DNA from: an uncultured archaeon
GTDB taxonomy: Archaea > Asgardarchaeota > Thorarchaeia > Thorarchaeales > Thorarchaeaceae
NCBI GenBank assembly: GCA_964590575.1
Contig: CAZPWM010000050.1
Location: 1 to 21,531 of the forward strand
Length of the DNA: 21,531 nt
Direction of reading: 5' to 3'
The position numbers and the translations under genes were made by a program. Positions 131 through 20,041 of this stretch are shown in pieces (position 1 is the first letter of the stretch; each line of letters opens with the position of its first letter). Below the pieces are notes generated by a model. It did not search any database. It was given only the letters and a program-made list of their open reading frames with translations, and was not told where the DNA came from.

Positions 131-190
131 TACAATGTTCGAAATGTGTATAACCCTCTAATGAGAAGGTCGCACTGGAGTTGTTTCTTT

Positions 191-640
191 TTGACTGAAG
201 AACAGGATGAGGACAGAATCAGACAAATTGCTATGGAACTTGATAATGCTATAGAGTCAAAGGATATAGATCAGATAGTTTCATTCTTTACTGATGACAC
301 TGAGATAGAACTGATGGGGATAAAGCTCTTAGGAAAGGATGGTGCTAGAAGATGGTTAGATTGGTTATTTGGTACTCTTGCTGAAGTCAAATTCAAACCA
401 ATCATCATTATGGTTGAAGGAAACATATTCTTTGAAGAGTTCATTCTTGTGGGAACCTTACCTAATGGGAAAATTGTTGAATCCAAACAATCTGAAGTTT
501 TAGTATATGAAAACTATAAGATTAAGAATCTACGTGTTTATTTTGATAGACTTGATTTCGCAGATATTGTAGCAGAAGACTTCATCTCTAGAAAGATTGT
601 CAAAACTCTGATTTCACGCTCTCTAAAGGGACTTGTGTGA
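191..640 (+). CDS. SnoaL-like / NTF2-fold protein
   Basis: AIESKDIDQIVSFFTDD ... GKDGARRW ... KIKNLRVYFD is a typical SnoaL pattern. The track starts at 146; the TTG at 191 follows a GGAG and is the more likely start. Confidence 0.8.
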   Translation: MTEEQDEDRIRQIAMELDNAIESKDIDQIVSFFTDDTEIELMGIKLLGKDGARRWLDWLFGTLAEVKFKPIIIMVEGNIFFEEFILVGTLPNGKIVESKQSEVLVYENYKIKNLRVYFDRLDFADIVAEDFISRKIVKTLISRSLKGLV

Positions 641-2341: not shown

Positions 2342-4606
2342 CTAGGAAGTAGATGTGATATGTCTCACAACTTCTGGTAGGTTCCATTTCAACTCCAGTT
2401 CTAATGCTCCGCTTTCAGGACCAGGACATCGCCGGACACAAGTACGGCACGCAACACAAAGCCAAAGGTCCACCTCGACAGAGCCGAATCCTGGAGCTTC
2501 CTTTTCAAGCGAGATGTCCTTTGAAGGCTTGACCGTAGCAAGATTCTGAACTGTCTTGTAGAAAAGCGACCGACTGGATGGCAATTGTGAGAGAGCTTCT
2601 TCCGAGATTTCAAAGAATTTCGGTAACTCTATGCGTGGTTTCAATTCAATTGCGTTCTCTGGACATGCAATCTCACATGACTTGCAACCAAGACACTTTG
2701 ATTGCTCCCACTCAATTGTACCAAATCCTAGCAGAGGCGCGTAGCCCATTTGATTTCTGTATTCATCAAGAACTGATGGTATATCCACATCTACTAGGTC
2801 TTCAAGAGTGACTTTGGGTCTTGTGCTTGGAATCTTTGCACGAGTCCGATAAGCAAGCAGAACAGCAGAACGTATTGAATCCTCCACTTCCTTCAAGGTC
2901 GTTTCATCAATCACAGCACCACTCACACACACTGTTGCAAGCTTATCTCGAGCCTTTGAAAAGACTTCCAATGAGTTTGCTAGTCTGCCAATATCGGGTG
3001 CCTTCAGCTCACTCAATATTCTCTCAAGCTCTGCTTTGGCTTCGGAGAGTTGAAGAGCGATGTTAGTTGTTGTCTGTATAATAATCTCAGCTTCGGAGGG
3101 TGTCCTTGGAACATCATAAAGAAGGTACCCATGACTCTCGCCAGCTATCGTAAGAAGTTCATCACGTTTCATTCTCAGCAGATGGCTAAGAATTCTGTCC
3201 CGGGGTATGTTTGTTCTCTCAGCAAGATCATGCGCGGTTAGGGCGCCCAGCTCTCTAATGAGAATCAAGATTGTGCCACGTTCGAGTTCATTATCAAGAT
3301 AGGTATCCATCATTATCTGATAGACTTCAGGGTCTAACTTCTCTCCATAGACATTGGTTCCAGAAACAAGAGTGGGACCCTTTTCCAATGTGATTTTGAG
3401 ACGAAAGCGTGCGAACGCTTCAAGTCCTGCGGAAACGAGAAGTTTGAGATTTTCAGCATCATCAGAGGTTTGAGAAGTCAAGAGTGCTTCGGTGGCATTA
3501 TCAACTGTTTCTCTTAGTTTGTTCATTGGTTCTGAAAGACCAGTTTCATCATAAGCCCCCAGAATTTTCAAGCGCTCGAGTAGTGACTGGAGATTCACCA
3601 TGGATTCGTTTGCAGTTTCTGTAATATTATCGTCCAGTGACTTGATTATTCCTCGAACCTGTTGTACGATTATTTTCAGAACCAGTGTTGAATTTGGTAT
3701 TTCTGTGAGGACCTTCGAGAAAACAGGAGCATCACCATCAAGTCCTACCATCTCAATTTCGCCTCTCTGTATCATAGTCACAAGAGCGTTCTGTATGGCT
3801 TGAGATGAGGTTTGCATGAGTTCTCCTATCTGTACAACTGTTTTGGAACCCATCTTTCCAAGTATGAACATAATCACTCCACGATTGGCTTCAGTGAGCA
3901 TATTGTCTAAGACGAGCTTGTGGAAGCGTGCGTCATCAATTCGACCTTCTCGCTTTCCTCGTTTCACTTGAGCTGCAGCTCTCATCCCTGGACCGTACCT
4001 AGTTTTCGCCCCAATTTTTTGTAGCTCATCTAAAGCTGTTTCAGGATCTGTTTCAGCCTTTGTTTTAATCAGATTGAGGGTTTCGACCAAGGACACTAGT
4101 TCAGCCTGTGCAGATTCTGCTTCAGCTTCAGAGGCTTTCTCTAATTCATCTGTGATTGACTCAATTTCAGATACTAAATCAGATATTGTAGAAAGTGTAG
4201 CGGGTATGTTAATATCCACACTTGTTTCAGAGGTTTCCTCAACCTTCGTCATGCGACCAAGTGCGTCAACAAGCAGTTTGTTCAGTCCCTTCAACGATTC
4301 AGACTCAGTTGTGGATAATACCTTTTCAAGGTTAGAAATTGACTCTTTGAGAATGCCTCTATCACTAATCTCAGAAACTATTTTGCTTTTCTCAACTGTT
4401 TCTAAGAATTTCGTAAAATAAGAGTCAGGAAATGCAAGAATTGCATCAGTCAGAGGTGCTAGTTCGATTTTAAGCTTATCAAGCTCCTCCTTGACCCTGC
4501 TAAGTGGAATTGCAGACTCTTCTTTGAGACCTCCAATAGCTAATATCATGTCTAGCATACGTTGTCTCTTAGGTGCAATAGCCTTCTCAAGTTGTGATTG
4601 TTTCAT
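2342..4606 (-). CDS. Uncharacterised 754-aa protein: helical/coiled-coil N-terminus, two wHTH-like repeats, C-terminal 2x[4Fe-4S] ferredoxin-type domain
   Basis: CLGCKSCEIACP and CVACRTCVRRCP motifs; HTH-like LTAHDLAERTNIPRDRILSHLLRM and KTVVQIGELMQTSSQAIQNALVTM; start overlaps the upstream stop (ATGA 4603-4606). Confidence 0.75.
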   Translation of the reverse strand: MKQSQLEKAIAPKRQRMLDMILAIGGLKEESAIPLSRVKEELDKLKIELAPLTDAILAFPDSYFTKFLETVEKSKIVSEISDRGILKESISNLEKVLSTTESESLKGLNKLLVDALGRMTKVEETSETSVDINIPATLSTISDLVSEIESITDELEKASEAEAESAQAELVSLVETLNLIKTKAETDPETALDELQKIGAKTRYGPGMRAAAQVKRGKREGRIDDARFHKLVLDNMLTEANRGVIMFILGKMGSKTVVQIGELMQTSSQAIQNALVTMIQRGEIEMVGLDGDAPVFSKVLTEIPNSTLVLKIIVQQVRGIIKSLDDNITETANESMVNLQSLLERLKILGAYDETGLSEPMNKLRETVDNATEALLTSQTSDDAENLKLLVSAGLEAFARFRLKITLEKGPTLVSGTNVYGEKLDPEVYQIMMDTYLDNELERGTILILIRELGALTAHDLAERTNIPRDRILSHLLRMKRDELLTIAGESHGYLLYDVPRTPSEAEIIIQTTTNIALQLSEAKAELERILSELKAPDIGRLANSLEVFSKARDKLATVCVSGAVIDETTLKEVEDSIRSAVLLAYRTRAKIPSTRPKVTLEDLVDVDIPSVLDEYRNQMGYAPLLGFGTIEWEQSKCLGCKSCEIACPENAIELKPRIELPKFFEISEEALSQLPSSRSLFYKTVQNLATVKPSKDISLEKEAPGFGSVEVDLWLCVACRTCVRRCPGPESGALELELKWNLPEVVRHITSTS

Positions 4607-6774
4607 TCAGTCACCTCCATCCACTTCCCAGCAGTTCCATCATGGACAGGGGTGGGGCCTAGCTTTTTGGCACGTTTCACCATTTCATTGATTGCATTGG
4701 TGAAGCGCTCTGGCTCTGCACTGAACATTCTGAACATGTCAACTCGTTCACCTTTCCAACCAATAGCATTCAATATGTCGCGAGCAACGTCTACTTGCAC
4801 CTGAGCAATCTCATTACCAGTCCCTCCGATGTGGCATCGATCTTTCTCACAAGCTGCAATCATAACAGTGCTAGCACCATTTTCGAGAGCCTTGAAAATG
4901 TCTATGATACTTACACGACCAGCACAAGGTACAGGAATCAGACGTGTGCTTGCGGGATATTCCATCTTTCTTGTCCCAACAATATCAATTGTGGATACTG
5001 AACATTCCTCACAGTAGAAACAGAGTGTGATTGGATAGTCTGGACCTGCACCCTCAAGCACGGCTTCAATTTCGGACCATAGCTGATCGTTAGATAGGAA
5101 GTTGAGCTGAGTTGCACCTGATGGACATAAACTCTGACAGACTCCACAGGAATGACAATTCAGTATGTCAATCGAGGCCTTGAAGAGGATCTTTTGCTCT
5201 TCATCGGCTTCCTCCGCTTCTGTCTGTTCAATCATAAGTGGAACTCCACGAGGACACTGTTGTGCACAGAGACTGCATCCAACACAGTCATCCACATTAA
5301 GTACGGCTCCACGTGCGACGGATTCGATTTTTCCACCTTGTAATTCATTATGGATTATGATTGCACCAGCTTGAGCGTCAGTCACAGCTTCAAATACAAA
5401 CTGGGGACGTGTGACTCCTCCAACTGCAACTACACCACGCCGACGGGTTTCGTTCCTTCTCAGTTTACCATAAAGTTCCTTTACATGTCCATCATCTTCA
5501 ATTGCATAGCCCAAGGTTTCTGAAAGCTCGAAAGTTCCATCTGCGGGCAGAATTGCGGAGGACAGAACCAGTAGGTCTACTGGTGTTTCTAGATACTTGT
5601 CAAGGAGAGAGTCATAGACCCGTACATACGTAGTGCCATCTTGTTCCCAAGTCATACTTACGCGACCACGGATGTAGTCAATCCCCTTCTCACGTGACTC
5701 CTTGTATATCATTTCGTTCTCGAATGGAACTCGTATATCCATGTAGACAATCCTTACGTTTGCATCAGGATTTTTCTTGAGGATTTCTAGAGAGTTGTCA
5801 ATTGCGAATGTGCAACACAGTTTGCTGCAGTCCTTCTTGTAGTCTTCAGACCTGCTGCCAACGCATTGGACCATTACAACTTCCTTGACTGGTTTTCCAT
5901 CAGATGGCCGACTAAGTTCACCCTCAGATAGCATGCATGAGAGCTCGAACTGTGTAATGACATCTGGATTCTTACCATAACGGTATTCGTCCATAGCTAT
6001 AGGTTTGAACTCCTTGAATCCAGTTGCTAGGACTATGGCGGAAGTTTGTAAGGTCTTCTCCTCTTCATAATCATCCTCTGACAAATAATGAACTGTGAAA
6101 TTCCCCATCTCTCCAGTGACGTACTTGATTTGGGTCTTGGTCATTATTGTGATTTTGTTTTCGTTCTGGAGTGCTTCCAATCGACCGCTAAGTATCTCCT
6201 TACCAGATTTACCAGTGGGAGCAACAACAGGGAGGCTTTTGACGTGTCCTCCTAGTTCATCTGTGAGTTCCAATAGAGCGACCTCGTAACCGAGGTTTGA
6301 AAGGCTGAGTGCGGACTCAATTCCAGCAATTCCTCCACCAATGACAGTTACGTGTGTGGCAACCTCCTTTTGTTCTAGTGACCGCTTCATTGATTTGGCG
6401 GACCTTGCTAGTGTGCCACGAATCATATCCACAGATTTCTTGCTTGCTTCATCAACATCATTGTGGACCCATGCTGAGTGTTCTCTGAGGTTCACATATT
6501 GGATTTGAGTGCTGTCAATACCATGTGAGTCAAGATACTGATCAATTCGTGGTTGGATTTTCTGACTGGAACATGCAGCTATCACAAGATGTCCATCACT
6601 GGTCTTGAGAAGCTCTGCAATCTTCTCCAGACCTCCTTCCTGACAGACAAGATCATGAACAGTCACGGAGGATGTCAGGTCCATTTTCTTGACCTGCGTT
6701 TCGAGGAAGTCAAATTCTAACTGAAGTTGTTTACCACAGGTGCAGATGAGTACTGCTGATTTTTTGTCATCCAT
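4603..6774 (-). CDS. hdrA: HdrA-like flavoprotein fused to MvhD (QmoB-like architecture)
   Basis: N-terminal CTCG/C/AACS domain with NLREHSAWVH; FAD motif VIGGGIAG; QCVGSR..CSKLCC; two CxxCxxCxxxCP motifs; C-terminal MvhD with CFYCEEC, VPCAGRV and CEKDRCH. Confidence 0.92.
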   Translation of the reverse strand: MDDKKSAVLICTCGKQLQLEFDFLETQVKKMDLTSSVTVHDLVCQEGGLEKIAELLKTSDGHLVIAACSSQKIQPRIDQYLDSHGIDSTQIQYVNLREHSAWVHNDVDEASKKSVDMIRGTLARSAKSMKRSLEQKEVATHVTVIGGGIAGIESALSLSNLGYEVALLELTDELGGHVKSLPVVAPTGKSGKEILSGRLEALQNENKITIMTKTQIKYVTGEMGNFTVHYLSEDDYEEEKTLQTSAIVLATGFKEFKPIAMDEYRYGKNPDVITQFELSCMLSEGELSRPSDGKPVKEVVMVQCVGSRSEDYKKDCSKLCCTFAIDNSLEILKKNPDANVRIVYMDIRVPFENEMIYKESREKGIDYIRGRVSMTWEQDGTTYVRVYDSLLDKYLETPVDLLVLSSAILPADGTFELSETLGYAIEDDGHVKELYGKLRRNETRRRGVVAVGGVTRPQFVFEAVTDAQAGAIIIHNELQGGKIESVARGAVLNVDDCVGCSLCAQQCPRGVPLMIEQTEAEEADEEQKILFKASIDILNCHSCGVCQSLCPSGATQLNFLSNDQLWSEIEAVLEGAGPDYPITLCFYCEECSVSTIDIVGTRKMEYPASTRLIPVPCAGRVSIIDIFKALENGASTVMIAACEKDRCHIGGTGNEIAQVQVDVARDILNAIGWKGERVDMFRMFSAEPERFTNAINEMVKRAKKLGPTPVHDGTAGKWMEVTE

Positions 6775-6783
6775 CTATCAGTT

Positions 6784-8034
6784 TCACTTCCTCCTCTGGA
6801 GTATCTTAGACACGACTGCACGAGCTTGGGTCACACTCTCGGGAACTTCAGCAGGACCCAAGGCGGCGCCACATGCATAGACATGGTCACCCACCACGAC
6901 TTCATTCTCTGAAGCTGGATCTGCTATTCCCACAAATCCACTTGCAGACTTTAATCCAAGTGATTCAATGAGTTTGTCAGTACCCTTTGTTGGTTCCAAT
7001 GCTGATGAAAGCACAAAAAGGTCCACTGTAAACTTGAGATATTTATTCAGAAGAGAGTCATAGACTGTTATGTCTAAGGTATCATCATTACGAGGTTGAA
7101 CGAGAGAAACTCTGCCTCGGACAAACTCTACACCGGAGTTTCGGGAGTCACGATAGTATCGTTCATACCTATCATATGTGCGGATATCCATGTATACGAC
7201 ACTTACTGAAACATCATCCCGTTCCTGTCTTAGAATATTGGCATGTTTGAGGGCGAAGATACAACATATCTTAGAGCAATAAGGGTAGTAGTTCTCATCT
7301 CTACTCCCAACACACTGTACCATCATCACTCGCTTTGCGGGCTTTCCATCGGATGGTTTCACAGGTACCCCACCTGATTCTCCATTGGGGTCAATTATCT
7401 TGGCTAGTTCAAGCTGGGTTATGATGTTGGGGTGTTTTCCGTAGTTATACTCATCCACGTTGACTGGTTGCATCTCGTGATAACCCGTAGCAATGACAAT
7501 ATCTGAAACTTGGACTGTTTCTTCAGTGGGTTGTGCACCCAGATTGATTGCCTTAGTTGGGCACTCCTCTTCGGCCTGTTTAGCACCAGCATCTTCTTTT
7601 GTTGGGTCGAAGATGACAGCTTGAGGTTGACACTGAGGGGACAATAAACGGAATGCCTCTGACTTTTCTAGACAAAGACCGCACATCGTACATTTCTTTG
7701 GATTGACATACTCAGGGCCCACCTTGAGCTTGGCAGAGAATTGACCTGGAGTGCCGGAGATTTCGTCTACTTCACTATGCATCCTCAATGTTATGTTAGG
7801 TTGGTCAGTGAGCGCGCTCCTATAGAAGCATTTGCGGATTCCAGGACGCGAACGATTCCCCTCAAAACAGTAGAAACAATCATCGGTTGGGAATGCCTTG
7901 TAAAGGTCTAGAGCATTGCCCCCTACGGTTTCTTGACGTTCAACAAGGACCGTCTTGATTCCAGAGTCTGCAAGCTCAACAGCAGCTGTCATACCTGCAA
8001 CACCAGCTCCGATGATAAGGACCGGATTGGACAC
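6784..8034 (-). CDS. hdrA: Short HdrA-like flavoprotein (QmoA-like architecture)
   Basis: GTG start after GAGGTGA RBS; IIGAGVAG; KAFPTDDCFYC; inserted CTMCGLC..CP; QCVGSRD..YCSKICC. Lacks the N-terminal Cys domain and the C-terminal ferredoxin. Confidence 0.9.
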   Translation of the reverse strand: MSNPVLIIGAGVAGMTAAVELADSGIKTVLVERQETVGGNALDLYKAFPTDDCFYCFEGNRSRPGIRKCFYRSALTDQPNITLRMHSEVDEISGTPGQFSAKLKVGPEYVNPKKCTMCGLCLEKSEAFRLLSPQCQPQAVIFDPTKEDAGAKQAEEECPTKAINLGAQPTEETVQVSDIVIATGYHEMQPVNVDEYNYGKHPNIITQLELAKIIDPNGESGGVPVKPSDGKPAKRVMMVQCVGSRDENYYPYCSKICCIFALKHANILRQERDDVSVSVVYMDIRTYDRYERYYRDSRNSGVEFVRGRVSLVQPRNDDTLDITVYDSLLNKYLKFTVDLFVLSSALEPTKGTDKLIESLGLKSASGFVGIADPASENEVVVGDHVYACGAALGPAEVPESVTQARAVVSKILQRRK

Positions 8035-8045
8035 TCTTTTTCACC

Positions 8046-8912
8046 TCACCCGGTCAAATGATCAAGAATGGGAGCTGCTGGGACCCTATTCATGCTTAGG
8101 CCTACTTCTTCTTCATCCATTCCCATGGCCAGCCCAAGAATTTGTGGATACAAGAGTACTGGTAAGTTGTATTCCTCACCGTATGATTCTTTCAGGCCTA
8201 GTTGTTGTAAATCAAGCTGGTTACCACAAGCAGGACAGACTACAGTAATAAATTCCGCTCCAGATTCTTTAATTGACTTCAACTTATCACGGGCCAATCT
8301 AATAGCAAGATTTTCATCGACGGGTAGAACAGTTGCACCGCAGCATTGTTTCCATATCGGGTACTCAACAACTGAAGCTCCAGTAACCCGAATCAGCTCG
8401 TCTAGATATTCTGGTTTGAATTCAGTCACGTCAGCGGGACGGAGAACATGACAACCATAGTGGATTGCAATTCCTACCCCATCTAATGGTTTTGTGACTT
8501 TCTTTTTGATTTCTTCAATTCCAATGTCAGTATATAGAGCTTCTACAAAATGACGGGGAGTTATTGTGCCTTTGAACTCCAAGCTCTCCTTCTTTAAGAT
8601 AGCATTGACCTTCTTCCTGTAGTCGGTATTAAGTTTGAGAAAGTGGTATACATCTTTGAGAGATCCGAAGCACCCATTACATGGAGTGACGATATCATGT
8701 CCATTCTTCTCTGCAATAGCCAAGGTTCTCGCATTTACAGTAAGCCATCCCATGTAGTCAATAGCACGAAGATTAGGACTGCCACAACAGGCGACACCCT
8801 CCATATACTCCAATCGCATATCATAAGCTTCTGCGACCTTTATCATTGCTGCTTCATAATTCGGATAGTTTGCAGGCACACTGCAACCTATGTATAAGTT
8901 GTACACTGGCAC
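8046..8912 (-). CDS. hdrB: Heterodisulfide reductase subunit B
   Basis: Two CCG domains (GC..CCG..CNGC; HYGCH..CCG..CPAC). The track starts at 8933; the GTG at 8912 follows GGTGGTGA and the hdrC stop. Confidence 0.95.
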   Translation of the reverse strand: MPVYNLYIGCSVPANYPNYEAAMIKVAEAYDMRLEYMEGVACCGSPNLRAIDYMGWLTVNARTLAIAEKNGHDIVTPCNGCFGSLKDVYHFLKLNTDYRKKVNAILKKESLEFKGTITPRHFVEALYTDIGIEEIKKKVTKPLDGVGIAIHYGCHVLRPADVTEFKPEYLDELIRVTGASVVEYPIWKQCCGATVLPVDENLAIRLARDKLKSIKESGAEFITVVCPACGNQLDLQQLGLKESYGEEYNLPVLLYPQILGLAMGMDEEEVGLSMNRVPAAPILDHLTG

Positions 8913-8913
8913 C

Positions 8914-9456
8914 TCACTCACCACCAGCCACAAGCTTGCCGGTCCGGGTTTCCTTCAGTATGTCTTTCACTTCATCAACTGATAGACCAGGTACCTCTGG
9001 CTCAAGACCCATATCTTCGCGCTCCCAATCTGCTGTCACTGTATAGAGTTGACCTTTCTCAAGCAATTCTTTACCCAAACCAACAACATTTGATGGGACC
9101 TTACCCTCTTCAGCAGCTAGATTCTTACATTCAAAGAAAATGTCAGTGACTCGAACTTTCTGAGGGCAACGTTCTTGACACTGGAAACATGTCAGACAAA
9201 GCCAAATCTCATCAGATGAGAGAACCTCATCACGCATTCCTAAAAGTATCATCCGAATCAACTGGTGTGGTTTATACGTCCAGACATTCGCAATGGGACA
9301 TGCTGCTGTACAAGTTGAACAGGCAAAACAAGCAGAGAGTTCTTCACCGTTCGGCATACTGTGAATCTCTTCACGAAACTTCTTATCAAGTTTTGACATT
9401 TCAATAGGATCAATCAGTGTAGCTGGGGGTCCAGTCGATTCTTCAGTTTCAGCCAT
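8914..9456 (-). CDS. hdrC: Heterodisulfide reductase subunit C
   Basis: CFACSTCTAACP and IWLCLTCFQCQERCP, PHQLIRMILLG; adjacent to hdrB. Confidence 0.95.
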   Translation of the reverse strand: MAETEESTGPPATLIDPIEMSKLDKKFREEIHSMPNGEELSACFACSTCTAACPIANVWTYKPHQLIRMILLGMRDEVLSSDEIWLCLTCFQCQERCPQKVRVTDIFFECKNLAAEEGKVPSNVVGLGKELLEKGQLYTVTADWEREDMGLEPEVPGLSVDEVKDILKETRTGKLVAGGE

Positions 9457-10077: not shown

Positions 10078-10721
10078 TCAGAGAATCCCTCCTCTGCAAC
10101 GATGCGGATGACTGTACCATCACGTAACCATGTCTTCGCATTAGCTGTAGGAATCATAGCAATATCCTCTTTCTTGAACGGACCATAAGTCTTCTCATCA
10201 AGACCTAAGAAAGCATCACTGATCGAGCGTAGGAATCGCACAGTTACGTACTCGACAGTTTCAGAAGCAGATGGAGTCTTGAATTTTTTCCCATGTTCAC
10301 TAGTCTTCTTTTTCTTCTTTGGTTTAGAGCCAGCTAAGGAATCCTTGACAAACTCGGTATGACCATCAAAAGCACGTTGAACTCTGTTGTATAGTTCTTC
10401 CTCTGCGAGTATCATATCGCCTCTTGGTCGGTGCCCTGAGAGCGCAGCCTTCAATATCTTCTGTTTTCGGAGATTCAATAAATCTTCAATCATGAATTCA
10501 AGGTTGAGAGCTTCTTGTGTCAGTATATCAGCTTGAATCCGCTTTTCGGCATCAGTAGATGCCAAAGATAGACGCACACTGGAAAGGTAATCGATCATTT
10601 TGCTTAGTTGAAGGTCGCCCAAATTTTGAAGACTCTCATTCTCTATTTCAGTTTCCCAAGTAGATTTGATATCGTTATATCCCAAATCACTCAATGATAG
10701 CAACTCCCTTGCATAATACAA
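10074..10721 (-). CDS. gins15: GINS subunit, Gins15/Gins51 type
   Basis: Helical A-domain (LLNLRKQKILKAA, EEELY) then B-domain VRFLRSISDAFLGLDEKTYGPFKKEDIAMIPTANA; directly downstream of priS. The true start may be the TTG at 10694. Confidence 0.88.
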   Translation of the reverse strand: MYYARELLSLSDLGYNDIKSTWETEIENESLQNLGDLQLSKMIDYLSSVRLSLASTDAEKRIQADILTQEALNLEFMIEDLLNLRKQKILKAALSGHRPRGDMILAEEELYNRVQRAFDGHTEFVKDSLAGSKPKKKKKTSEHGKKFKTPSASETVEYVTVRFLRSISDAFLGLDEKTYGPFKKEDIAMIPTANAKTWLRDGTVIRIVAEEGFSE

Positions 10722-12093
10722 AAGCCGCAGCAGCTGTTGGCATCTCTACAGACTCCCCATGATAAGGCCCATATGTTTCATCTCCGATTCTAAAGCGAGG
10801 AACTCCAGGAGATTTGTATAGGAACTTGACCTTCATTTGTCCATCATTGAAAGCAATGGCATCTCGAAAAGGATCAAAGTCATCAAGCTCATCTCTGGAC
10901 AGCTGGTTGACTAAGAATCCAGTCTTGCCATTCAAGCTTCCGATTAGACGAATGACTCTGTGAATGTCGTGGGTCACAGGGCGGTCTATCTCACCACCGT
11001 AAAACTCTGCAGCTTTCTCTGCGATCTCCTGCCATGACTTCAGTCCAATGTCCTTAGCCTCTTTGTTCAAAATGGGAGGGTTCCGGAGAAGTCCTTCTAT
11101 TGCTGCTACCTTTCCCTTTCTTAGCGGTTTGACCCATCTCTCTGTACCATCGTATGAATCTATATTCTGTACAAACTCGATGATTGCATCAGCCATTTTA
11201 CCAGACCAGCCTGGAAAGACACGGTCTGGAACTCGATTCACATTACCCTGAGTGACTATTACTTTCTCAGTGTTGAGACCAAGACCCATGATATAGTGCA
11301 CAATCTGAATGCGACCACTTGAGTCAAGTGAGTAGACTCGTGGGTCTCGAACACGAATATGATACCCTCTATGACCACTATAGTTGAGCTGAATAGATTC
11401 AGGATCAAACCCAAAATCATTCATAATGAATTCATCATAGAGCTTCACAGTATGCTTCTTTGCTTCAGCTAAACATTTCTCACATACCCATTTCCTTGTA
11501 CTGAAGCTCGTTCCACTACAATCTGGACAGTTTTCGGGGGGGAGACCTACTCCTGTTTTATGACATCCCTCAACATTACAACGCCATGCATCATGCTCCT
11601 TAGCACAAGGTAAATCCAAATGATCAGCATCAATATCAAAAACAAGTTCAGCCCCGAACCATTCCTTCTCATCCATATGGCGAGCGACTGGGATTTTGTA
11701 AAATGCAGCTGAGTGATAGATACTGTGCGGTGCAATAGATACTAAATCTTGTACCAGTTCGTCACGATTCAGGTATCCAACATGTCTCCTCCAAGTTGTC
11801 GTCTGGATATCACTAGATCCACATTTTGGACACTCTTTGAGGTTTGAGAAGGATTTTCCCGATTGGCCACATCCGGTTGTTGTTTCACGACCAGATTCGT
11901 CACGGCCCTTTCTCTTAGGACAATACCAATTATAGTCCCAGCTTTGGATACCGAATTCACGTGTGTGAACCTTTTCAGGAATGTCAATGGAATCGGGATT
12001 TGATTTGTAAAATTCATGGAACATAAATCGCAGTTTCAAAACCGTGCTTGTGAAACCTTGATTCTGATTCGACATATAGTGGAACTCCATCAA
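10687..12093 (-). CDS. priS: DNA primase small (catalytic) subunit with extra Zn-ribbon
   Basis: REFG, ELVFDIDAD (DxD), YSGHRGYHIRV, IDRPVTHDIHRVIRLIGSLNGKTG. Confidence 0.96.
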   Translation of the reverse strand: MMEFHYMSNQNQGFTSTVLKLRFMFHEFYKSNPDSIDIPEKVHTREFGIQSWDYNWYCPKRKGRDESGRETTTGCGQSGKSFSNLKECPKCGSSDIQTTTWRRHVGYLNRDELVQDLVSIAPHSIYHSAAFYKIPVARHMDEKEWFGAELVFDIDADHLDLPCAKEHDAWRCNVEGCHKTGVGLPPENCPDCSGTSFSTRKWVCEKCLAEAKKHTVKLYDEFIMNDFGFDPESIQLNYSGHRGYHIRVRDPRVYSLDSSGRIQIVHYIMGLGLNTEKVIVTQGNVNRVPDRVFPGWSGKMADAIIEFVQNIDSYDGTERWVKPLRKGKVAAIEGLLRNPPILNKEAKDIGLKSWQEIAEKAAEFYGGEIDRPVTHDIHRVIRLIGSLNGKTGFLVNQLSRDELDDFDPFRDAIAFNDGQMKVKFLYKSPGVPRFRIGDETYGPYHGESVEMPTAAAAFVLCKGVAIIE

Positions 12094-12127: not shown

Positions 12128-12883
12128 TTACCTACGTTCTACTCGTGGTGCAAGAACGAAGCTTATACTTCCAGCTTCTGCTATTCCGAATTCTAACATC
12201 ATTGGTTTATTGGAAGTGAATTGAAGCATTAGGCTGTCACTGGCAATCGCTTTTGATATTTCTGTAAGATAATTCAGGGCGTACATCGATGCCGATTTGC
12301 CTGATACTTCCAGTTGAAAAAGTGCTGGCGCGTCACCTTTGGTAGTCAGCGCAACATTGGCTTCACCAGTATCACCCTCACCAGCGAAAGCGAGCTGTCC
12401 TTGCTCTGCACTGATCTTTACATGACTAGAAACAACTCCAATATCTTTGATTGCCTGTTTGAAAGTATCAGATAGTAGTTCAGCCTTTACATCGAATTGA
12501 ATTCCGGGTTTCTTTGTCTGATCATCTGGCGGTGTTAATAGTTGCAGTTTGAACACTCGATTTGCCTGTCCAATCATTCGAATCTCAAAACGGTTTTCAG
12601 ACTCATCAAGATTGAACTCGAGATGCTCATCCCCTGTCATCCGTTTGCTCACCTTAGCGAGCTCATCGATACCCAAACAGATGTCATGTTCACCCTTGCA
12701 TGAATACTCCTGGAAAATTCCAGAAGGAAGGGTCAAATCAACCATTGCAGCCTTTGATGAGTCGAGCTGACGTAGCGATATTCCAGATTCAGATACCCGG
12801 AAATGTGCTTCTGTGAGCAGTGTTGCAAGAGCGTCTACAATCTGCTTCCATGTCTTGGTACTATCAAGAGTCGCGTGAAACAT
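12128..12883 (-). CDS. pcn: PCNA sliding clamp, paralogue B
   Basis: 251 aa; LDSSKAAMVDL, FQEYSC, MYALNYL, C-terminal FVLAPR. Confidence 0.97.
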   Translation of the reverse strand: MFHATLDSTKTWKQIVDALATLLTEAHFRVSESGISLRQLDSSKAAMVDLTLPSGIFQEYSCKGEHDICLGIDELAKVSKRMTGDEHLEFNLDESENRFEIRMIGQANRVFKLQLLTPPDDQTKKPGIQFDVKAELLSDTFKQAIKDIGVVSSHVKISAEQGQLAFAGEGDTGEANVALTTKGDAPALFQLEVSGKSASMYALNYLTEISKAIASDSLMLQFTSNKPMMLEFGIAEAGSISFVLAPRVERR

Positions 12884-13071
12884 ACCGTTATCTCCAACCG
12901 TCTATTGAAGCGCAAACTGAGTATTATTAGTCTGAACAACGGATTATCATTCAAATATTCAGTTCTTGCTCTTTGTTTGTGAACTAGATTCTCAAAATGA
13001 ATTTCACATTTAAAGAGTTACTCTCGGTTGATTTTGTATTCTTTTTATAGGTAAGATGGATGTGCTTGTTG

Positions 13072-13824
13072 TTATCTTCTCTCTATTCTTGGAGCCAGAA
13101 GGAAACTGATTTTTCCACCTTCCGCAATTGGAAACTCAAGCATCATAGGTTTATTCCCGGTCATTCTGAGTGTCAGGATATCACTTGAGATTGCCTTGGC
13201 AATTTCTGTAAGATAGCTAAGGGCATACATTGTGACAACGTCCTGTTTCACCTCTAAAACATGAAGAAGAGAGTCGTCTCCAAGTTTCAAAGAAACCTCG
13301 GCTTCACCAACATCACCCTCTCCTCCAAAACTTAGCGATTCCTTTGTAGCTTTAATTTTCATATGATTTGAAACAACGCCAATATCCTTTACGACTTGTT
13401 TGAATGAGTCAGAAAACATTTCAGCCCTAATTTCAAATGTTGGACTTATCTTCTGGGTCCTTTCTTCTGGCGGAGTAAGTAAATGAATTTTGAATGTCCG
13501 TTCAGCTTGACCTATCATCTTAATTTCAAAACGATTTTGAGATTTGTCAAGATCAAATTCTAATTTATCATCACCAGCCATACGTTTACTCACTTTTCCG
13601 AGCTCGTCTAATCCTAGGCATATCTCATGTTCGCCTTTGCAGTTGTATTCTTGGAAAATATCTGAAGGAAGAAAGAGGTCGACCATAGCTGCTCTGGATG
13701 AGTCATATTGAATCAGTGAGATGCCATCCTTTGTGATTAGGAAATGCGCTTCTGTGAGCAGTGTTGCCAGAGCATCAACTATTTGTTTCCATGTCTTGCT
13801 ATTGTCAAGAGTTGCATGAAACAT
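13072..13824 (-). CDS. pcn: PCNA sliding clamp, paralogue A
   Basis: 250 aa; DSSRAAMVDL, FQEYNC, MYALSYL, C-terminal FLLAPR. Confidence 0.97.
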   Translation of the reverse strand: MFHATLDNSKTWKQIVDALATLLTEAHFLITKDGISLIQYDSSRAAMVDLFLPSDIFQEYNCKGEHEICLGLDELGKVSKRMAGDDKLEFDLDKSQNRFEIKMIGQAERTFKIHLLTPPEERTQKISPTFEIRAEMFSDSFKQVVKDIGVVSNHMKIKATKESLSFGGEGDVGEAEVSLKLGDDSLLHVLEVKQDVVTMYALSYLTEIAKAISSDILTLRMTGNKPMMLEFPIAEGGKISFLLAPRIERR

Positions 13825-13837
13825 GATAATTCATTCC

Positions 13838-14212
13838 TCACTCACTCATTGTTTTAGTTACTTTTCCCTCCATATCTTGGACTTCCTTAAAGAGTGCAAC
13901 ATCCAAAGTATCGATATCATGAGCAATTGACGCATTCAATCTTAGCTCTTTTCCATCATCGACAATCTTCTCAGTGACTTCCCCGATGAATAGGTATCGT
14001 TTTTTCAGCTCGAGTGAAGCTTCAACAATGACTTGAATCTTACCTGCTTTTTTAACATCATCATCGTATATGTCTTGGATAACCGCAAGTCCTGGACTTG
14101 CGTCTACAACAATTCCCATTATTCTAACAGGACCACTTGTATCTGCAGAGAGGTTTCGTATTGTGGTGAGTTTTGATGGTTTTCGAGGGGTGAATCTTTT
14201 CTCTTCGGTCAA
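13838..14212 (-). CDS. Small OB-fold protein, RPA3/RPA14-like
   Basis: TTG start after GGTG; VRIMGIVVD..IQD..IGEV..ASIAHDIDTLDVALFKEV resembles archaeal RPA14 with a C-terminal trimerisation helix. Confidence 0.7.
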   Translation of the reverse strand: MTEEKRFTPRKPSKLTTIRNLSADTSGPVRIMGIVVDASPGLAVIQDIYDDDVKKAGKIQVIVEASLELKKRYLFIGEVTEKIVDDGKELRLNASIAHDIDTLDVALFKEVQDMEGKVTKTMSE

Positions 14213-16785: not shown

Positions 16786-16872
16786 CTATTTGATGCTTTA
16801 TTCTATGAGTGAACCAAAGTCTGTACTGATGAAATGTGTGGTTTGTACGTGAAACAGCCGTTGGTAATACCC

Positions 16873-16954
16873 ACTCTTATGAGTTCCATGTACTCCATAG
16901 GCTCCAGTAGAAATCCATTGGAACTTACCTTAAGTTCTTATGGAAATATTTATG
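16873..16954. promoter_or_regulatory. Cluster of ORB/mini-ORB-like Orc1/Cdc6 binding motifs (candidate oriC or cdc6 autoregulatory site)
   Basis: GTTCCATG (16883), CTCCATAG (16893), CTCCAGTAGAAAT (16902), ATCCATTGGAAC (16913) and TTCTTATGGAAAT (16935), compared with the ORB core TTCCAGTGGAAA; immediately upstream of cdc6. Confidence 0.65.
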
Positions 16955-17004
16955 TTCTAGGTAGGTGTGATTAACGTCAGGTTCGGATTGGAGTAGATGT
17001 TTCG

Positions 17005-18252
17005 ATGGAAAAACCGCTCGATAAACTGTTTGATAAATTCTTGCAAGGCCAGGCGATTTTCAGGGATAGAACTGCGTTGAGACCCACATACGTACCTGAG
17101 AGTCTTCCATATAGAGATGACCAAATGAGTCGAATTGGGTCCATACTAGGACCGGCGCTCAGAGGGGCTCCGCCCTCCAATATTCTCTGTTACGGGAAGA
17201 CTGGTACTGGAAAAACTGTGGTGGCTAGATACGTACTTGATATGCTAGTGAAGAAAGCCGAAGAGAGTGGAATAAACGCACCTTTGACAGCTTTTGTGAA
17301 TTGTAGGATAGTCGGGACCAACTATAGAGTATTGAAACGATTGTGTGACGCAGTGGATGCAACCATGCCTGATGGGTCTGAGGTCCCGTTCACCGGACTC
17401 CCTACAGATGAGATTCGAGAGGTCTTGAAGAACAAGTTAGACTCCAAAACGAATATCCTTACAGTGGTACTTGATGAAGTTGACAGTTTATTGAAACGTG
17501 ATGTAAGTCAAGGTAACGATATTCTCTATGGTTTGACTAGAATGAATGGAGAGTTAGAGAGTAGTAGAATATCGATTATAGGGATAAGTAATGACTTAAC
17601 ATTCAAGGAGATGCTCGACCCAAGGGTCTTGTCAACTCTAGGGGAGGAAGAGGTAATTTTCTCACCCTACAATGCTGTAGAACTTAAGGGCATTTTGAAA
17701 CAGAGAGTGGAGCTAGCTTTCAACAAGACAGCTATTGGCGATGAGGGAGTAATCAATTTGGTTGGGGCTTTGGCAGCTCAAGAACATGGAGATGCACGTA
17801 GAGCACTCGATTTGTTAAGAACAGCAGGTGAGCTTGCAGAGAGAAGAGGGGATGAAGCGGTCACCCAGGATCACGTGCGTGAGGCACAGAAGGTTATTGA
17901 ACGTGACACAATAACTGAAACTGTGAAGACCCTTCCAATGCAGTCGAAAGCTGTTCTATTCGCAGTATACGTTTTGACGAGTAAAGGACAGCGAGATATC
18001 TTCACTGGTGAGTGTTATAACATCTATTCTGAGATAGCAAAATCCCTTTCTCTAGACACATTGACTCAAAGGCGTGTTTCCGATTTAATTTCGGAACTGG
18101 ATATGTTAGGTCTGATCAATACTACAGTGATCTCAAAGGGCCGCTATGGAAGAACGAAGAAAATTAAGCTGGCTGTAAGCAAGAGTCAGATTGGGGTCAT
18201 TTTGGATGATGATATTCGTCTCAGTAAGGTAGCTAAGGATATTCTTGACTGA
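17005..18252 (+). CDS. cdc6: Orc1/Cdc6 replication initiator
   Basis: Walker A GKTGTGKT, Walker B VLDEVD, GDARRALDLLR, C-terminal wHTH (RRVSDLISELDMLGLI, SKGRYGRT). Confidence 0.98.
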   Translation: MEKPLDKLFDKFLQGQAIFRDRTALRPTYVPESLPYRDDQMSRIGSILGPALRGAPPSNILCYGKTGTGKTVVARYVLDMLVKKAEESGINAPLTAFVNCRIVGTNYRVLKRLCDAVDATMPDGSEVPFTGLPTDEIREVLKNKLDSKTNILTVVLDEVDSLLKRDVSQGNDILYGLTRMNGELESSRISIIGISNDLTFKEMLDPRVLSTLGEEEVIFSPYNAVELKGILKQRVELAFNKTAIGDEGVINLVGALAAQEHGDARRALDLLRTAGELAERRGDEAVTQDHVREAQKVIERDTITETVKTLPMQSKAVLFAVYVLTSKGQRDIFTGECYNIYSEIAKSLSLDTLTQRRVSDLISELDMLGLINTTVISKGRYGRTKKIKLAVSKSQIGVILDDDIRLSKVAKDILD

Positions 18253-18271
18253 AATGGCTCGTATCCGACTA

Positions 18272-19894
18272 TTACGTGGACATATCATAGAAGAATCTCA
18301 CATCAGGTGCACCAGTTCTAAGATTCAGAAACGTGACAATGCCAGGAGTTGGTATGACTCCTTGTTTACGCATAAATTCGGTCTGGGATTGAAAAGTTCC
18401 TGAGTTGATGATTTGGACGCCACGATAGTTGTCAACAGCATTGTGATGAGCATGACCAAAATGCACTACATCGGGAGGTGTGTCAATCACCATCCAGTCT
18501 CTATTCAGAGGAGCAAGTTCGGTCTTCCCCCCATATATCGGTGCGAGATGACGTTTTTTGAGAAGTTCTTTCATTGGCATAGCAGGTTCGGTATATGAAG
18601 CTCCGGGAATACTCGTTACTAAATCATCTAAGCTGTCACCATGGGTCATCAGAACATTCACACCCTCAACAATTACCTGACTCGGATCACCCAACATTGT
18701 GATTTGGCTTCCAAGATTGTATAGCGGTTTCGCGAATTCCTCTGAAATTGGGGGTTTAGGTAGAGCCTGTCTAGTTGCATCGTGATTACCAGGGATACAG
18801 AAAATCTTGATGTGATTAGGAAGTTTGTTTAACTTGCTTGCAATGAGCGTATATTGGTCATAGATGCTCGTGATTGCCAAATCGTCTCTCTGTGAGGGAT
18901 AAACACTAATCCCATCTACCATATCACCAGCAATGAAGATGTATCTGATTTGTTTTACAATGGTTTTGTCCTCTTCATCAACATCATGCCCATTTAACCA
19001 ACTAATGAATTGGTCAAACTCATCTTCTAGAAATTCCTTACTTCCACAATGGATGTCTGATATGAAGACCGCAAAGACGTCTCGTTTAGCTCGGCCTACT
19101 TCTCGAGCAGTTGGGATATCAGGGAAGATGACATCATCAGCAATCATCCTAGCATCATCATCAACGAATCCAGAAATACAAGTAATTTCGTCTAGAAGTA
19201 AGGAGTTTGCCTTTTCTGAGAGTTGTTGTCCCTTCAGACCATCTCTAGTAGTAGGGACTATGCAGATTATTGATTCTTCTGCATCTTCCAGTTCAATAAT
19301 CACATTTCGCGACTGAGATATGCTCTTGTTCTTTACAATTCCAAGTACTGTCTGGGTTGTGCGGCTTGATGTACGCATACCCTCCTTGGTCATTGCTTTC
19401 CTCTGCCTTGCTGAATCCTTTCTTATCTTGGCAATTTGTGGGGATACCGCATTCTGTGTGTCAATTCGACTCATGTATATTCGTTTGATTCGATTGAACC
19501 GGTCTCTAAAGAGGGCTAAGAAATCGTCTACTGTTCCTTCTGATCCAACCTGCTCAGAGCTGGGGGTTTTTTCTATACGAAATGACCATTCTATGTCATC
19601 ATCGGACATAGGATTTGGTAGTAGTGTTTCAGGAGGAATTATTTCAGGTTCTTTGACAACTATCTCAGCTGCTTCTTCAAGTATTGTATCAGAACTCTGT
19701 CCTTCGATAAGTGATTCCACATAGAAACGAGAGAGCACGGGAGGATGTTTTATGGTTTCGTCAGCAAATATAATTGACTTGACTGTTTCAATAGGAGTGG
19801 CTAGGTGTAGAATGTAGTCTAATGCTTCAGGGGCTACTTGGAGTCCTGACTCGATTAACAACTTGAGTACATTGCGTCGAATTGAAGATGTCAA
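18272..19894 (-). CDS. DNA polymerase D small subunit DP1 (3'-5' exonuclease)
   Basis: FRDRFNRI, OB fold, calcineurin-like motifs SDIHCGS, GDMVDG, PGNHD, THG, GHAH; INSGTFQSQTEF; TTG start. Confidence 0.96.
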   Translation of the reverse strand: MTSSIRRNVLKLLIESGLQVAPEALDYILHLATPIETVKSIIFADETIKHPPVLSRFYVESLIEGQSSDTILEEAAEIVVKEPEIIPPETLLPNPMSDDDIEWSFRIEKTPSSEQVGSEGTVDDFLALFRDRFNRIKRIYMSRIDTQNAVSPQIAKIRKDSARQRKAMTKEGMRTSSRTTQTVLGIVKNKSISQSRNVIIELEDAEESIICIVPTTRDGLKGQQLSEKANSLLLDEITCISGFVDDDARMIADDVIFPDIPTAREVGRAKRDVFAVFISDIHCGSKEFLEDEFDQFISWLNGHDVDEEDKTIVKQIRYIFIAGDMVDGISVYPSQRDDLAITSIYDQYTLIASKLNKLPNHIKIFCIPGNHDATRQALPKPPISEEFAKPLYNLGSQITMLGDPSQVIVEGVNVLMTHGDSLDDLVTSIPGASYTEPAMPMKELLKKRHLAPIYGGKTELAPLNRDWMVIDTPPDVVHFGHAHHNAVDNYRGVQIINSGTFQSQTEFMRKQGVIPTPGIVTFLNLRTGAPDVRFFYDMST

Positions 19895-20041
19895 TTGGCC
19901 ACCGATTAAGGTGGTACGAGTTTCCTGTTTTAAACATCATCTATAGTGAATGGTAATTAAGGAGAGAAAGTACCTGCGGGAAATGTAATAAGCCGCCTAC
20001 ATGAAATTCAATTAGTATTCTTCTTTGTAAGGTGAAAGGAT

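What the first reader, a model, noticed from the sequence alone, without database searches (positions are those of the whole stretch)
12128..13824. Tandem PCNA paralogues that differ most around the interdomain connector loop
Seen: two intact PCNA genes 188 bp apart. By manual alignment they are about 68% identical overall and about 78% over the first 100 aa, but only 7/20 over aa 121-140 (ERTQKISPTFEIRAEMFSDS vs DQTKKPGIQFDVKAELLSDT). Established: the connector loop forms part of the PIP-box pocket; most Euryarchaeota and eukaryotes use a homotrimer, whereas Sulfolobales use a heterotrimer of far more divergent subunits. Inference: a lineage-specific duplication heading toward partner-specialised clamps or a mixed ring.
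Basis: partly seen in the sequence, partly recalled or inferred. Interest (0 to 1): 0.7.

Follow-up and report, generated by a model that had tools for sequence, protein, structure and literature searches.

The report
Tandem PCNA clamp paralogues in Thorarchaeia
One genus of Asgard (Thorarchaeota-type) archaea carries a second, faster-evolving copy of the DNA sliding clamp next to the standard one, with its own conserved changes in the partner-binding pocket, and many species have since lost that extra copy.

Summary
Two intact PCNA genes lie on the minus strand: A at 13072-13824 (250 aa) and B at 12128-12883 (251 aa). They are 188 nt apart and 67% identical. Independent metagenome contigs bridge the spacer.

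The pair is not peculiar to this genome. Across 87 genomes of the class, two tandem copies occur in 15 of 28 genomes of the window's genus and in 0 of 59 genomes of 16 other genera.

Trees put all upstream copies in one clade and all downstream plus single copies in another. That fits one duplication near the base of the genus, followed by 2-6 losses of A. A is never found alone.

Both copies are under purifying selection (dN/dS 0.04-0.14 for A, 0.02-0.10 for B), and A changes about twice as fast.

The connector loop is a low-identity window, but it ties with residues 181-200. Both windows are also the most variable among single-copy orthologues. What is specific is narrower: 5 of 8 A-only conserved substitutions align with eukaryotic PIP-pocket residues, against 0 of 6 for B.

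My reading: B is the housekeeping clamp, and A is a dispensable accessory clamp with a remodelled partner pocket. A mixed ring is untested. A 2025 paper's supplement already records multiple PCNA copies in Thorarchaeia.

The parts
13072..13824 (-). PCNA copy A (250 aa): the upstream, faster-evolving, dispensable paralogue. It sits in the ancestral slot, 13 nt after the RPA3-like gene.
   Evidence: ORF. PCNA_N and PCNA_C hits. AlphaFold2 model with mean pLDDT 93.6. Member of the A clade, support 100/99. dN/dS 0.04-0.14.
12128..12883 (-). PCNA copy B (251 aa): the downstream, conservative paralogue. It is orthologous to the only PCNA of the 12 single-copy genomes of the genus.
   Evidence: ORF. 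Pfam hits. Member of the B clade, support 100/100, together with the single copies. dN/dS 0.016-0.098. A 222-nt contig from an RNA library is identical over 12635-12856.
13432..13482 (-). Codons for the interdomain connector loop of A (residues 115-131), holding the A-specific Q124, I126 and P128.
   Evidence: Loop limits from the DSSP string of the model. Residue patterns.
12491..12541 (-). Codons for the connector loop of B (residues 115-131). It keeps the K-K-P-G-I pattern, with K124 and P126 as in the other genera (which mostly have L at 128).
12884..13071 (-). A-B spacer. It is homologous to the spacer between the RPA3-like gene and B in the single-copy genomes.
   Evidence: Alignment of the region upstream of B in 26 genomes of the genus.
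13007..13027 (-). Conserved promoter-like element upstream of B (CCGAGAGTAACTCTTTAAATG here: a purine-rich stretch followed by an A/T box). It aligns upstream of B in all 26 genomes compared, with or without A, with small variations.
   Evidence: Its function as a promoter is inferred, not shown. My narrow regular expression for it found nothing upstream of PCNA in the 42 loci of other genera.
12892..12895 (-). GGAG, a ribosome-binding-like motif 8 nt before the B start codon.
   Evidence: Sequence; conserved.
13838..14212 (-). Small OB-fold gene (RPA3/Ten1-like, 124 aa) directly upstream of A and probably co-transcribed with it.
   Evidence: Weak Pfam hits below the curated cut-offs: Ten1_2 at 9.6e-6 and Rep_fac-A_3 at 8e-4. 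Found upstream of PCNA in 38 of 42 loci of other genera, with a gap of 37 nt or less in 25 of those 38.
10687..12093 (-). Primase small subunit PriS, directly downstream of B. The order OB-fold gene, PCNA, PriS is conserved across the class.
   Evidence: Pfam DNA_primase_S; synteny.

Best explanation
A tandem duplication of the single PCNA gene happened at or shortly before the base of this Thorarchaeia genus. The duplication lies inside the conserved cluster of OB-fold gene, PCNA, PriS and Gins51.

Copy B keeps an ancestral-like partner pocket and evolves slowly. It lies behind a conserved promoter-like element of its own and is retained in every genome of the genus that has a PCNA. I take B to be the housekeeping replicative clamp, and it must form a working ring by itself.

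Copy A stays in the ancestral position, 13 nt behind the OB-fold gene. It evolves about twice as fast but under clear purifying selection. It has fixed its own residues around the PIP-box pocket: Y40, R44, a re-arranged connector loop with Q124, I/L126 and P128, and L242. It has been lost 2-6 times.

I read A as a dispensable accessory clamp with altered client preference. It most probably forms its own ring, because its interface strands stay ancestral-like. The closest analogue is the PCNA1/PCNA2 pair of Thermococcus kodakarensis, not the Sulfolobales heterotrimer.

Shown: the duplication pattern, the selection, the losses and the site pattern. Inferred: the promoter, separate rings, and changed partner choice.
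For: Distribution. Two tandem matches occur in 15 of 28 genomes of genus g1 (G000 included) and in 0 of 59 genomes of 16 other genera. The own genome has only these two copies.

Trees.
- In the 83-row quick tree, the A clade (15 rows) and the B clade (15 downstream plus 11 single copies) each have SH-aLRT 99.
- In the 44-row careful tree, A has 100/99 and B 100/100.
- The main splits of the A and B subtrees match.
- Holding A and B together as one clade is not rejected (AU p 0.428).

Losses. The single-copy rows need 6 changes on the tree, of which at least 2 are forced by well-supported branches. In single-copy genomes the OB-fold gene is followed by a 98-205-nt spacer and then B, with no tblastn trace of A. 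That spacer is homologous to the A-B spacer.

Selection. NG86 dN/dS between orthologues is 0.042-0.136 for A and 0.016-0.098 for B. The median dN(A)/dN(B) is 1.96 over 105 genome pairs.

Sites.
- The A-only conserved residues are Y40 and R44 (15/15 each, against L and K in 26/26 B), T110, Q124, P128, L181, M221 and L242. P126 is also replaced by I or L in A.
- Five of these 8 fall among 17 positions aligned with eukaryotic PIP-pocket residues named in PMC8319368, PMC8191301 and PMC10087552 (passages read). The hypergeometric p is 3.9e-5. Without the loop positions it is 3 of 6, p 0.002.
- None of the 6 B-only sites falls in that set.
- A's interface strands (108-114, 174-180) resemble those of single-copy orthologues.

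Precedent. In T. kodakarensis two PCNAs form separate trimers and only one is needed (PMC3504372 and PMC3914693, passages).
Against: - No direct evidence on ring composition, partner binding or expression of A.
- The pocket list was compiled after the sites were seen. Its connector-loop positions rest on an HMMER alignment through a loop, so the enrichment figure is indicative only.
- Several of the substitutions are conservative (K to R, V/I to L).
- No candidate dedicated partner was found. Fen1-type, PolB, RfcS-type and ligase family matches are as frequent in genomes without A as in those with it.
- The sisterhood of A and B is unresolved: it appears in 22% of bootstrap trees, and the careful tree puts A beside genus g12. 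The duplication could therefore be somewhat older than the genus.
- The two genes also differ in regulatory context, which alone could explain retention.
Confidence: 0.55

Rival explanations
1. Mixed ring. A and B co-assemble into heterotrimers (AAB or ABB) in the genomes that have both. This would be a young, second origin of a heteromeric archaeal clamp that places different clients on defined subunits.
For: The two genes are adjacent and have been co-inherited since the base of the genus. At 67% identity the interface strands are similar. B carries derived, clade-wide changes next to interface strand 174-180: T181, a one-residue insertion and P186. Such changes could tune pairing. The Sulfolobales precedent is described in PMC3504372 (passages).
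Against: B is the only PCNA in 12 genomes of the genus, and it carries the same derived interface residues there. B therefore forms a working ring alone, and its changes are not tied to A. A was lost 2-6 times, which is hard to square with an obligate subunit. The two genes look separately regulated. No assembly test was possible.
Confidence: 0.17
2. Regulatory subfunctionalisation or dosage only. A and B are biochemically equivalent clamps kept because they are expressed under different conditions: A with the OB-fold gene, B from its own promoter. On this reading the pocket changes in A have no functional consequence.
For: A lies 13 nt behind the OB-fold gene, while B has a conserved promoter-like element and leader of its own. 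A is dispensable. No partner family co-varies with A. The connector loop is variable in all orthologues.
Against: Y40 and R44 are invariant in 15/15 A copies, whereas L40 is in 26/26 B and 35/42 others, and K44 is in 26/26 B and 40/42 others. The A loop motif is conserved across a clade whose members are only 66-89% identical to each other. Neutral changes would not stay fixed in this way, nor cluster in the pocket.
Confidence: 0.2
3. A was acquired from outside, from a mobile element, virus or another genus, as proposed for T. kodakarensis PCNA2. On this reading it did not arise by duplication in place.
For: Sisterhood of A and B is unresolved, and the careful tree puts A next to genus g12 with weak support of 70/0. 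Extra archaeal PCNA copies often come from integrated elements (PMC3914693, passages).
Against: A sits head-to-tail with B inside the core replication cluster, and no integrase or viral gene is among the Pfam hits of the 22 neighbouring ORFs scanned. It branches within the Thorarchaeia family. A single g1 clade is not rejected (AU p 0.43). The A and B subtrees are congruent.
Confidence: 0.05
4. A is a decaying or neutrally drifting duplicate, or the pair is an assembly or strain-mixing artefact.
For: A evolves faster and is often lost. No RNA contig covered A (this is not evidence of silence).
Against: A is intact in 15 of 15 genomes with dN/dS of 0.14 or less. Identical contigs from two other DNA runs bridge the junction. 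The copies differ at 33% of residues and dS is saturated.
Confidence: 0.02

Closest known systems
Thermococcus kodakarensis PCNA1 (TK0535) and PCNA2 (TK0582)
   Same: A single archaeal genome has two PCNA genes. There, each forms its own homotrimer, the rings differ mainly at the subunit interfaces, and only PCNA1 is required (PMC3504372 and PMC3914693, passages). Here likewise one copy (B) is always kept and the other (A) is naturally dispensable. Both T. kodakarensis structures are among the sequence matches (3lx1 at 3.5e-35, 3lx2 at 1.9e-27).
   Different: The T. kodakarensis extra copy lies in an integrated virus-like element (TKV3) and counts as a 'shell' gene (PMC3914693). Here the copies are tandem in the core replication cluster and have been inherited vertically through a whole genus. 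Here the marked differences of the extra copy are in the partner pocket. Ring composition has not been measured here.
Heterotrimeric PCNA1-2-3 of Sulfolobales and other Crenarchaeota
   Same: The paralogues arose by duplication. Partner specificity there is set by the connector loop and pocket: the loop of Sso PCNA2 blocks Fen1 (PMC3504372, passages).
   Different: That system has three much more divergent subunits that assemble in a fixed order, and it is ancestral to a phylum (PMC3914693). Here there are two copies of 67% identity confined to one genus, and B occurs alone in 12 genomes. An obligate heterotrimer is therefore excluded for B.
Multiple PCNA copies already counted in Thorarchaeia (Nat Ecol Evol 2025, PMC12680538)
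   Same: The supplementary text says multiple PCNA paralogues occur in Lokiarchaeales and Thorarchaeia. Supplementary Table 1 lists PCNA counts of 2 or more in 6 of 15 Thorarchaeia genomes. This is very probably the same duplication.
   Different: In what I read (main-text passages, supplementary text parts 2-3, table rows), the paper gives counts only and treats PCNA as 'mostly single-copied'. I saw nothing on tandem arrangement, genus restriction, losses, rates or pocket residues. Its figures and two picture-only supplementary PDFs could not be read.

Membership tests
PCNA sliding clamp (Pfam PCNA_N PF00705 + PCNA_C PF02747) | Two PCNA domains in one chain of about 250 residues | tested here: met
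   A: PCNA_N 7e-14 and PCNA_C 6.5e-20. B: PCNA_N 1.1e-15 and PCNA_C 5.2e-13. All are above the curated cut-offs.
PCNA sliding clamp (Pfam PCNA_N PF00705 + PCNA_C PF02747) | PCNA fold: two similar domains of helices and strands joined by a long connector loop | tested here: met
   AlphaFold2 model of A has mean pLDDT 93.6 and pTM 0.89, with a repeated strand/helix pattern and a loop at 115-131. It aligns end to end with solved archaeal PCNAs (P. furiosus 1ge8, E 4e-38). B was not modelled.
PCNA sliding clamp (Pfam PCNA_N PF00705 + PCNA_C PF02747) | Forms a closed trimeric ring around DNA | not testable with these tools
   No assembly test was run. For B it is inferred from its being the only PCNA in 12 genomes.
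PCNA sliding clamp (Pfam PCNA_N PF00705 + PCNA_C PF02747) | PIP-box pocket formed by the connector loop, the 40-48 region and the C-terminal L-A-P-R segment | tested here: inconclusive
   The C-terminal A244 and P245 are invariant and L243 and R246 nearly so, and A45-A46-M47 are kept in both copies. In A, positions 40, 44, 124, 126, 128 and 242 carry clade-specific residues. Binding was not tested.
Obligate heterotrimeric PCNA (Sulfolobales type) | Subunits cannot form the functional ring alone and all paralogues are retained together | tested here: not met
   B is the sole PCNA in 12 of the 27 g1 genomes that have a PCNA. A was lost 2-6 times.
Obligate heterotrimeric PCNA (Sulfolobales type) | Each subunit binds distinct clients through a different pocket or connector loop | tested here: inconclusive
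   A has a conserved, distinct pocket and loop signature. No binding data exist, and no client family co-varies with A.
Two independent homotrimeric PCNAs (T. kodakarensis type) | One copy essential, the other dispensable | tested here: met
   This rests on comparative evidence only. B is present in all 27 g1 genomes that have a PCNA, A in 15 of them, and A is never alone.
Two independent homotrimeric PCNAs (T. kodakarensis type) | Each copy forms its own trimer | not testable with these tools
   A's interface strands are ancestral-like. This is suggestive only.
Two independent homotrimeric PCNAs (T. kodakarensis type) | Extra copy carried by an integrated mobile element | tested here: not met
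   The copies are tandem inside the core cluster of OB-fold gene, PCNA, PriS and Gins51. There are no mobile-element genes among the 22 ORFs scanned.

The most novel reading that the evidence does not exclude
In the species that keep both genes, A and B co-assemble into mixed rings. B would hold the standard clients and A, through its re-shaped pocket (Y40, R44, the Q-K-I-S-P loop, L242), would hold a different one. That would be a young, independent and still reversible origin of a heteromeric sliding clamp in an Asgard lineage. The repeated natural losses of A would show which step of such a transition can still be undone.
Probability: 0.12. Interest if true: 0.7.

Novelty: new member of a known kind. 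Interest (0 to 1): 0.4.

Why it matters
Extra PCNA paralogues are the classic example of how a homomeric replication ring can become a specialised or heteromeric one. The known archaeal cases are either very old (Crenarchaeota) or imported with a mobile element (T. kodakarensis).

This pair is an in-place, genus-age duplicate at an intermediate stage. It is 67% identical, both copies are constrained, one has pocket-specific substitutions, and there are natural 'knock-outs' of the extra copy in sister species. That makes it a convenient system for asking, with a few recombinant proteins, whether partner specialisation comes before or after changes in ring assembly.

The interest is limited. The copy-number fact is already in print, the lineage is uncultured, and the pair has no direct bearing on the origin of the eukaryotic clamp.

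Tried and rejected
- **Careful tree of all 83 rows.** It did not finish in two runs. I report the quick tree for 83 rows and a finished careful tree for a 44-row subset. The subset held 8 A rows, 12 B rows, and up to two rows from each of the other genera except g17.
- **Partner co-occurrence within the genus (28 genomes).**
  - XPG_I (Fen1-type): two matches in 9 of 15 genomes with A and 9 of 12 without.
  - DNA_pol_B: two or more matches in 13 of 15 with A and 9 of 12 without.
  - Rep_fac_C (RfcS-type): two or more in 12 of 15 with A and 12 of 12 without.
  - DNA_ligase_A_M: two or more in 10 of 15 with A and 10 of 12 without.
  - None tracks A. Matches are not exact copy numbers.
- **Expression.** Only contigs of two RNA libraries were available. 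One 222-nt contig identical to B (X19) and two contigs on the TFS gene (X20) were found, and none on A. The lack of cover on A says nothing. The B contig could also stem from DNA in the library.
- **Complex prediction.** Not run. Its controls replace the partner by unrelated proteins, so it cannot tell AAA or BBB rings from mixed ones, and any PCNA pair would pass by likeness to solved rings.
- **Remnants of A in single-copy genomes.** None found by tblastn at E 1e-3 or lower. For G050 only 214 nt upstream of B are on the contig, so absence of A there is not certain. G045's B is cut by the contig end but directly follows the OB-fold gene.
- **Earlier findings of this scan.** Nothing near this place.
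- **Origin-type repeats beside cdc6.** Only two short inverted repeats and no direct-repeat family.
- **Model coordinates.** These are not available to scripts. Pocket membership therefore had to be taken from alignment to eukaryotic PCNA plus residues named in papers, not from distances.
Full report
**What is there**

The minus strand carries two complete PCNA genes. Copy A is at 13072-13824 (250 aa) and copy B at 12128-12883 (251 aa), with a 188-nt spacer between them. They are 67% identical (169/251, one single-residue gap). Both match PCNA_N and PCNA_C above Pfam's cut-offs.

Identity is 78% over the first 100 residues and 7/20 over residues 121-140. The window 181-200 is equally low at 0.35.

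The own genome (194 contigs, 91% complete) has no third PCNA at E 0.001 or lower.

The junction is not an assembly artefact. Contigs from two other DNA runs are identical across the end of A, the spacer and the start of B (X5: 12806-13526; X2: 12828-13123).

**Setting**

The genes sit in a replication and transcription cluster, all on the minus strand. In order it reads: a methyltransferase, Csl4, RpoL, an RNase III-like protein, TFS, a small RPA3/Ten1-like OB-fold protein, PCNA-A, PCNA-B, PriS, Gins51. Cdc6/Orc1 and the small subunit of PolD lie just upstream.

Sources name the closest database proteins PCNA of 'Candidatus Thorarchaeota', with a few other Asgard labels.

**How widespread**

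I searched 87 genomes of the class with copy A.
- 85 genomes have a match.
- Two matches, always adjacent and in the same orientation, occur in 15 of 28 genomes of the window's genus g1 (G000 included).
- Two matches occur in 0 of 59 genomes of the 16 other genera.
- Within g1, 12 genomes have one copy and one genome (G035, 89% complete) has none.

A Pfam PCNA_N scan of 332 Asgard genomes at least 80% complete gave two or more matches in 15 of 25 g1 genomes and in 19 of 307 others. I did not examine those 19.

**One duplication, then losses**

I extracted 83 PCNA proteins from 68 genomes. Left out were:
- G024, whose start my pattern did not find;
- the truncated G045 copy;
- 15 further genomes of other genera that I did not fetch.

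In the quick ML tree all 15 upstream copies form one clade (SH-aLRT 99). All 15 downstream copies plus the 11 single copies of g1 form another (99). A finished careful tree of a 44-row subset gives 100/99 for A and 100/100 for B.

The main splits inside A and B match, so the two copies have co-diverged.

Whether A and B are each other's closest relatives is unresolved.
- The quick trees put them together with weak support (59 and 34).
- The careful tree puts A beside genus g12 (70/0).
- 22% of bootstrap trees unite A and B.
- Forcing one g1 clade costs 0.44 log-likelihood units (AU p 0.43).

The tandem position and the genus-limited distribution make an in-place duplication near the base of the genus the simplest reading.

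Single-copy genomes are scattered through the B clade. They need 6 changes on the tree, of which at least 2 are forced by well-supported branches. In these genomes the OB-fold gene is followed by 98-205 nt and then B, with no tblastn trace of A. A is never found without B.

**Which copy is 'the' PCNA**

In other genera the single PCNA follows the OB-fold gene closely. The gap is 37 nt or less in 25 of the 38 loci where that gene was found. Copy A keeps this slot, with a 13-nt gap.

Copy B lies behind a spacer that is homologous in two-copy and single-copy genomes. The spacer holds a conserved promoter-like element (window 13027-13007) and a GGAG before the start codon. My narrow pattern for the element did not match upstream of PCNA in other genera. 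The promoter function is an inference.

In sequence the roles are reversed, and B is the conservative copy. NG86 dN/dS between orthologues is 0.016-0.098 for B and 0.042-0.136 for A. The median dN(A)/dN(B) is 1.96 over 105 genome pairs (range 0.81-5.66). Between the paralogues dN is 0.25-0.32 and dS is saturated. Neither copy is decaying.

**The connector loop**

The AlphaFold2 model of A (mean pLDDT 93.6) places the loop at residues 115-131. The two lowest-identity windows between A and B, 121-140 and 181-200, are also the most variable among single-copy orthologues of other genera (entropy 1.34 and 1.57). Raw divergence there is therefore mostly low constraint.

The informative signal is narrower. 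I looked for residues fixed in at least 13 of 15 A copies and present in 10% or fewer of B and of the other genera. These are Y40, R44, T110, Q124, P128, L181, M221 and L242. In addition, P126, which is near-universal in B and most other genera (genus g2 differs), is I or L in A. So where other genera read K-K-P-x-L (B here has K-K-P-G-I), A reads Q-K-I-S-P.

N-terminal numbering equals that of eukaryotic PCNA, and C-terminal numbering is eukaryotic minus 8 (alignment to yeast PCNA). On that basis:
- A positions 40, 44 and 242 align with M40, H44 and Y250;
- A positions 124, 126 and 128 align with L126, I128 and Q131, though the loop alignment is uncertain.

All of these eukaryotic residues are named as lining the PIP-box or T2AA pocket in passages I read in PMC8319368, PMC8191301 and PMC10087552.

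Five of the 8 A-only sites fall in the 17 positions so defined (hypergeometric p 3.9e-5). Without the loop positions it is 3 of 6 (p 0.002). For B-only sites (E86, I145, E160, T181, P186, G195) it is 0 of 6. The position list was compiled after I had seen the sites, so this is indicative, not a clean test.

**Ring assembly**

Strands 108-114 and 174-180 are the ones I recall forming the subunit interface in solved PCNAs. This was not checked against coordinates. In A they are close to those of single-copy orthologues.

B has derived residues just after 174-180: T181, a one-residue insertion and P186. These are identical in genomes with and without A. B therefore works alone, and A plausibly can as well. 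Mixed rings are neither supported nor excluded. I did not run the complex predictor because its controls cannot separate homo- from hetero-rings.

**Partners and expression**

Fen1-type, PolB, RfcS-type and ligase family matches are as frequent in g1 genomes without A as in those with it. No dedicated client emerged.

Of the two RNA libraries available as contigs, one has a 222-nt contig identical to part of B, and none covers A. This does not bear on whether A is expressed.

**Comparison with what is known**

The nearest analogue in behaviour is T. kodakarensis PCNA1/PCNA2, which form two separate homotrimers with only one required (PMC3504372, PMC3914693). That extra copy, however, came with an integrated element.

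The Sulfolobales heterotrimer shares the idea of pocket and loop-based client specificity. An obligate heterotrimer is excluded here for B.

The supplement of PMC12680538 already states that multiple PCNA paralogues occur in Thorarchaeia, and its table lists counts of 2 or more in 6 of 15 genomes. Its main text treats PCNA as mostly single-copy. In the parts I could read I saw no account of the tandem arrangement, genus restriction, losses, rates or pocket residues. My two literature searches on the topic turned up no other treatment.

**Verdict**

This is a real, well-conserved paralogue pair. It is a new, better-characterised member of a known kind (lineage-specific extra PCNA), of moderate interest. 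Its main value is as a tractable intermediate stage of clamp specialisation.

Noticed in passing
window 16786-20041: Cdc6/Orc1 (17005-18252, +) is divergent from the minus-strand cluster and is followed by the PolD small subunit (18272-19894, -). GC skew changes sign near 17000. The 219-nt gap before cdc6 has a 14-nt inverted repeat at 16914-16944 but no direct-repeat family. This is a possible replication origin region, not shown.
   Followed up: partly
window 13838-14212 (-): A 124-aa OB-fold protein has only sub-threshold hits to Ten1_2 and RPA3 (Rep_fac-A_3). It is conserved directly upstream of PCNA in 38 of 42 loci of other Thorarchaeia genera. This is a fixed partnership between an RPA3/Ten1-like gene and PCNA that may deserve its own look.
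   Followed up: partly
window 12884-13006 (-), and the same region in 12 other g1 genomes: In the subgroup of 13 genomes around G000 (7 with A, 6 without), the stretch between the promoter-like element and the B start codon is about 120 nt long. It is well conserved and includes a GATGAT...ATCATC-type inverted repeat. Other g1 genomes have a leader of only about 35-60 nt. This may be a regulatory leader.
   Followed up: no
Asgard genomes G186-G188 (genus g44), G341-G342 (g75), G161-G162 (g39), G225, G226, G301 and others: 19 of 307 non-g1 Asgard genomes at least 80% complete have two or three PCNA_N matches. Three of 6 are in g44 and 2 of 2 in g75. I did not check whether these are tandem duplicates, mobile-element copies, Rad1/Hus1-like proteins or contamination.
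   Followed up: no
window 2342-9456 (-): A redox gene cluster downstream of Gins51 holds heterodisulfide-reductase-like CCG-domain and 4Fe-4S proteins, two large FAD/ferredoxin proteins (one with an FlpD/MvhD domain), and a 754-aa protein with weak MarR-like hits. An acyl-CoA dehydrogenase follows at 1050-2249.
   Followed up: no
window 10687-12093 (-): PriS is long as listed (468 aa from a TTG start). Relatives align from residue 7, which suggests the ATG at 12075 as the real start. The Pfam primase domain covers only residues 203-395, and the N-terminal 200 residues contain several CxxC pairs.
   Followed up: no
genus g1, whole genomes: Most of the 28 genomes of the genus, with or without PCNA-A, carry two Fen1-type, two PolB-type, two RfcS-type and two ATP-ligase-type matches. 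This agrees with the counts for Thorarchaeia in Supplementary Table 1 of PMC12680538.
   Followed up: partly
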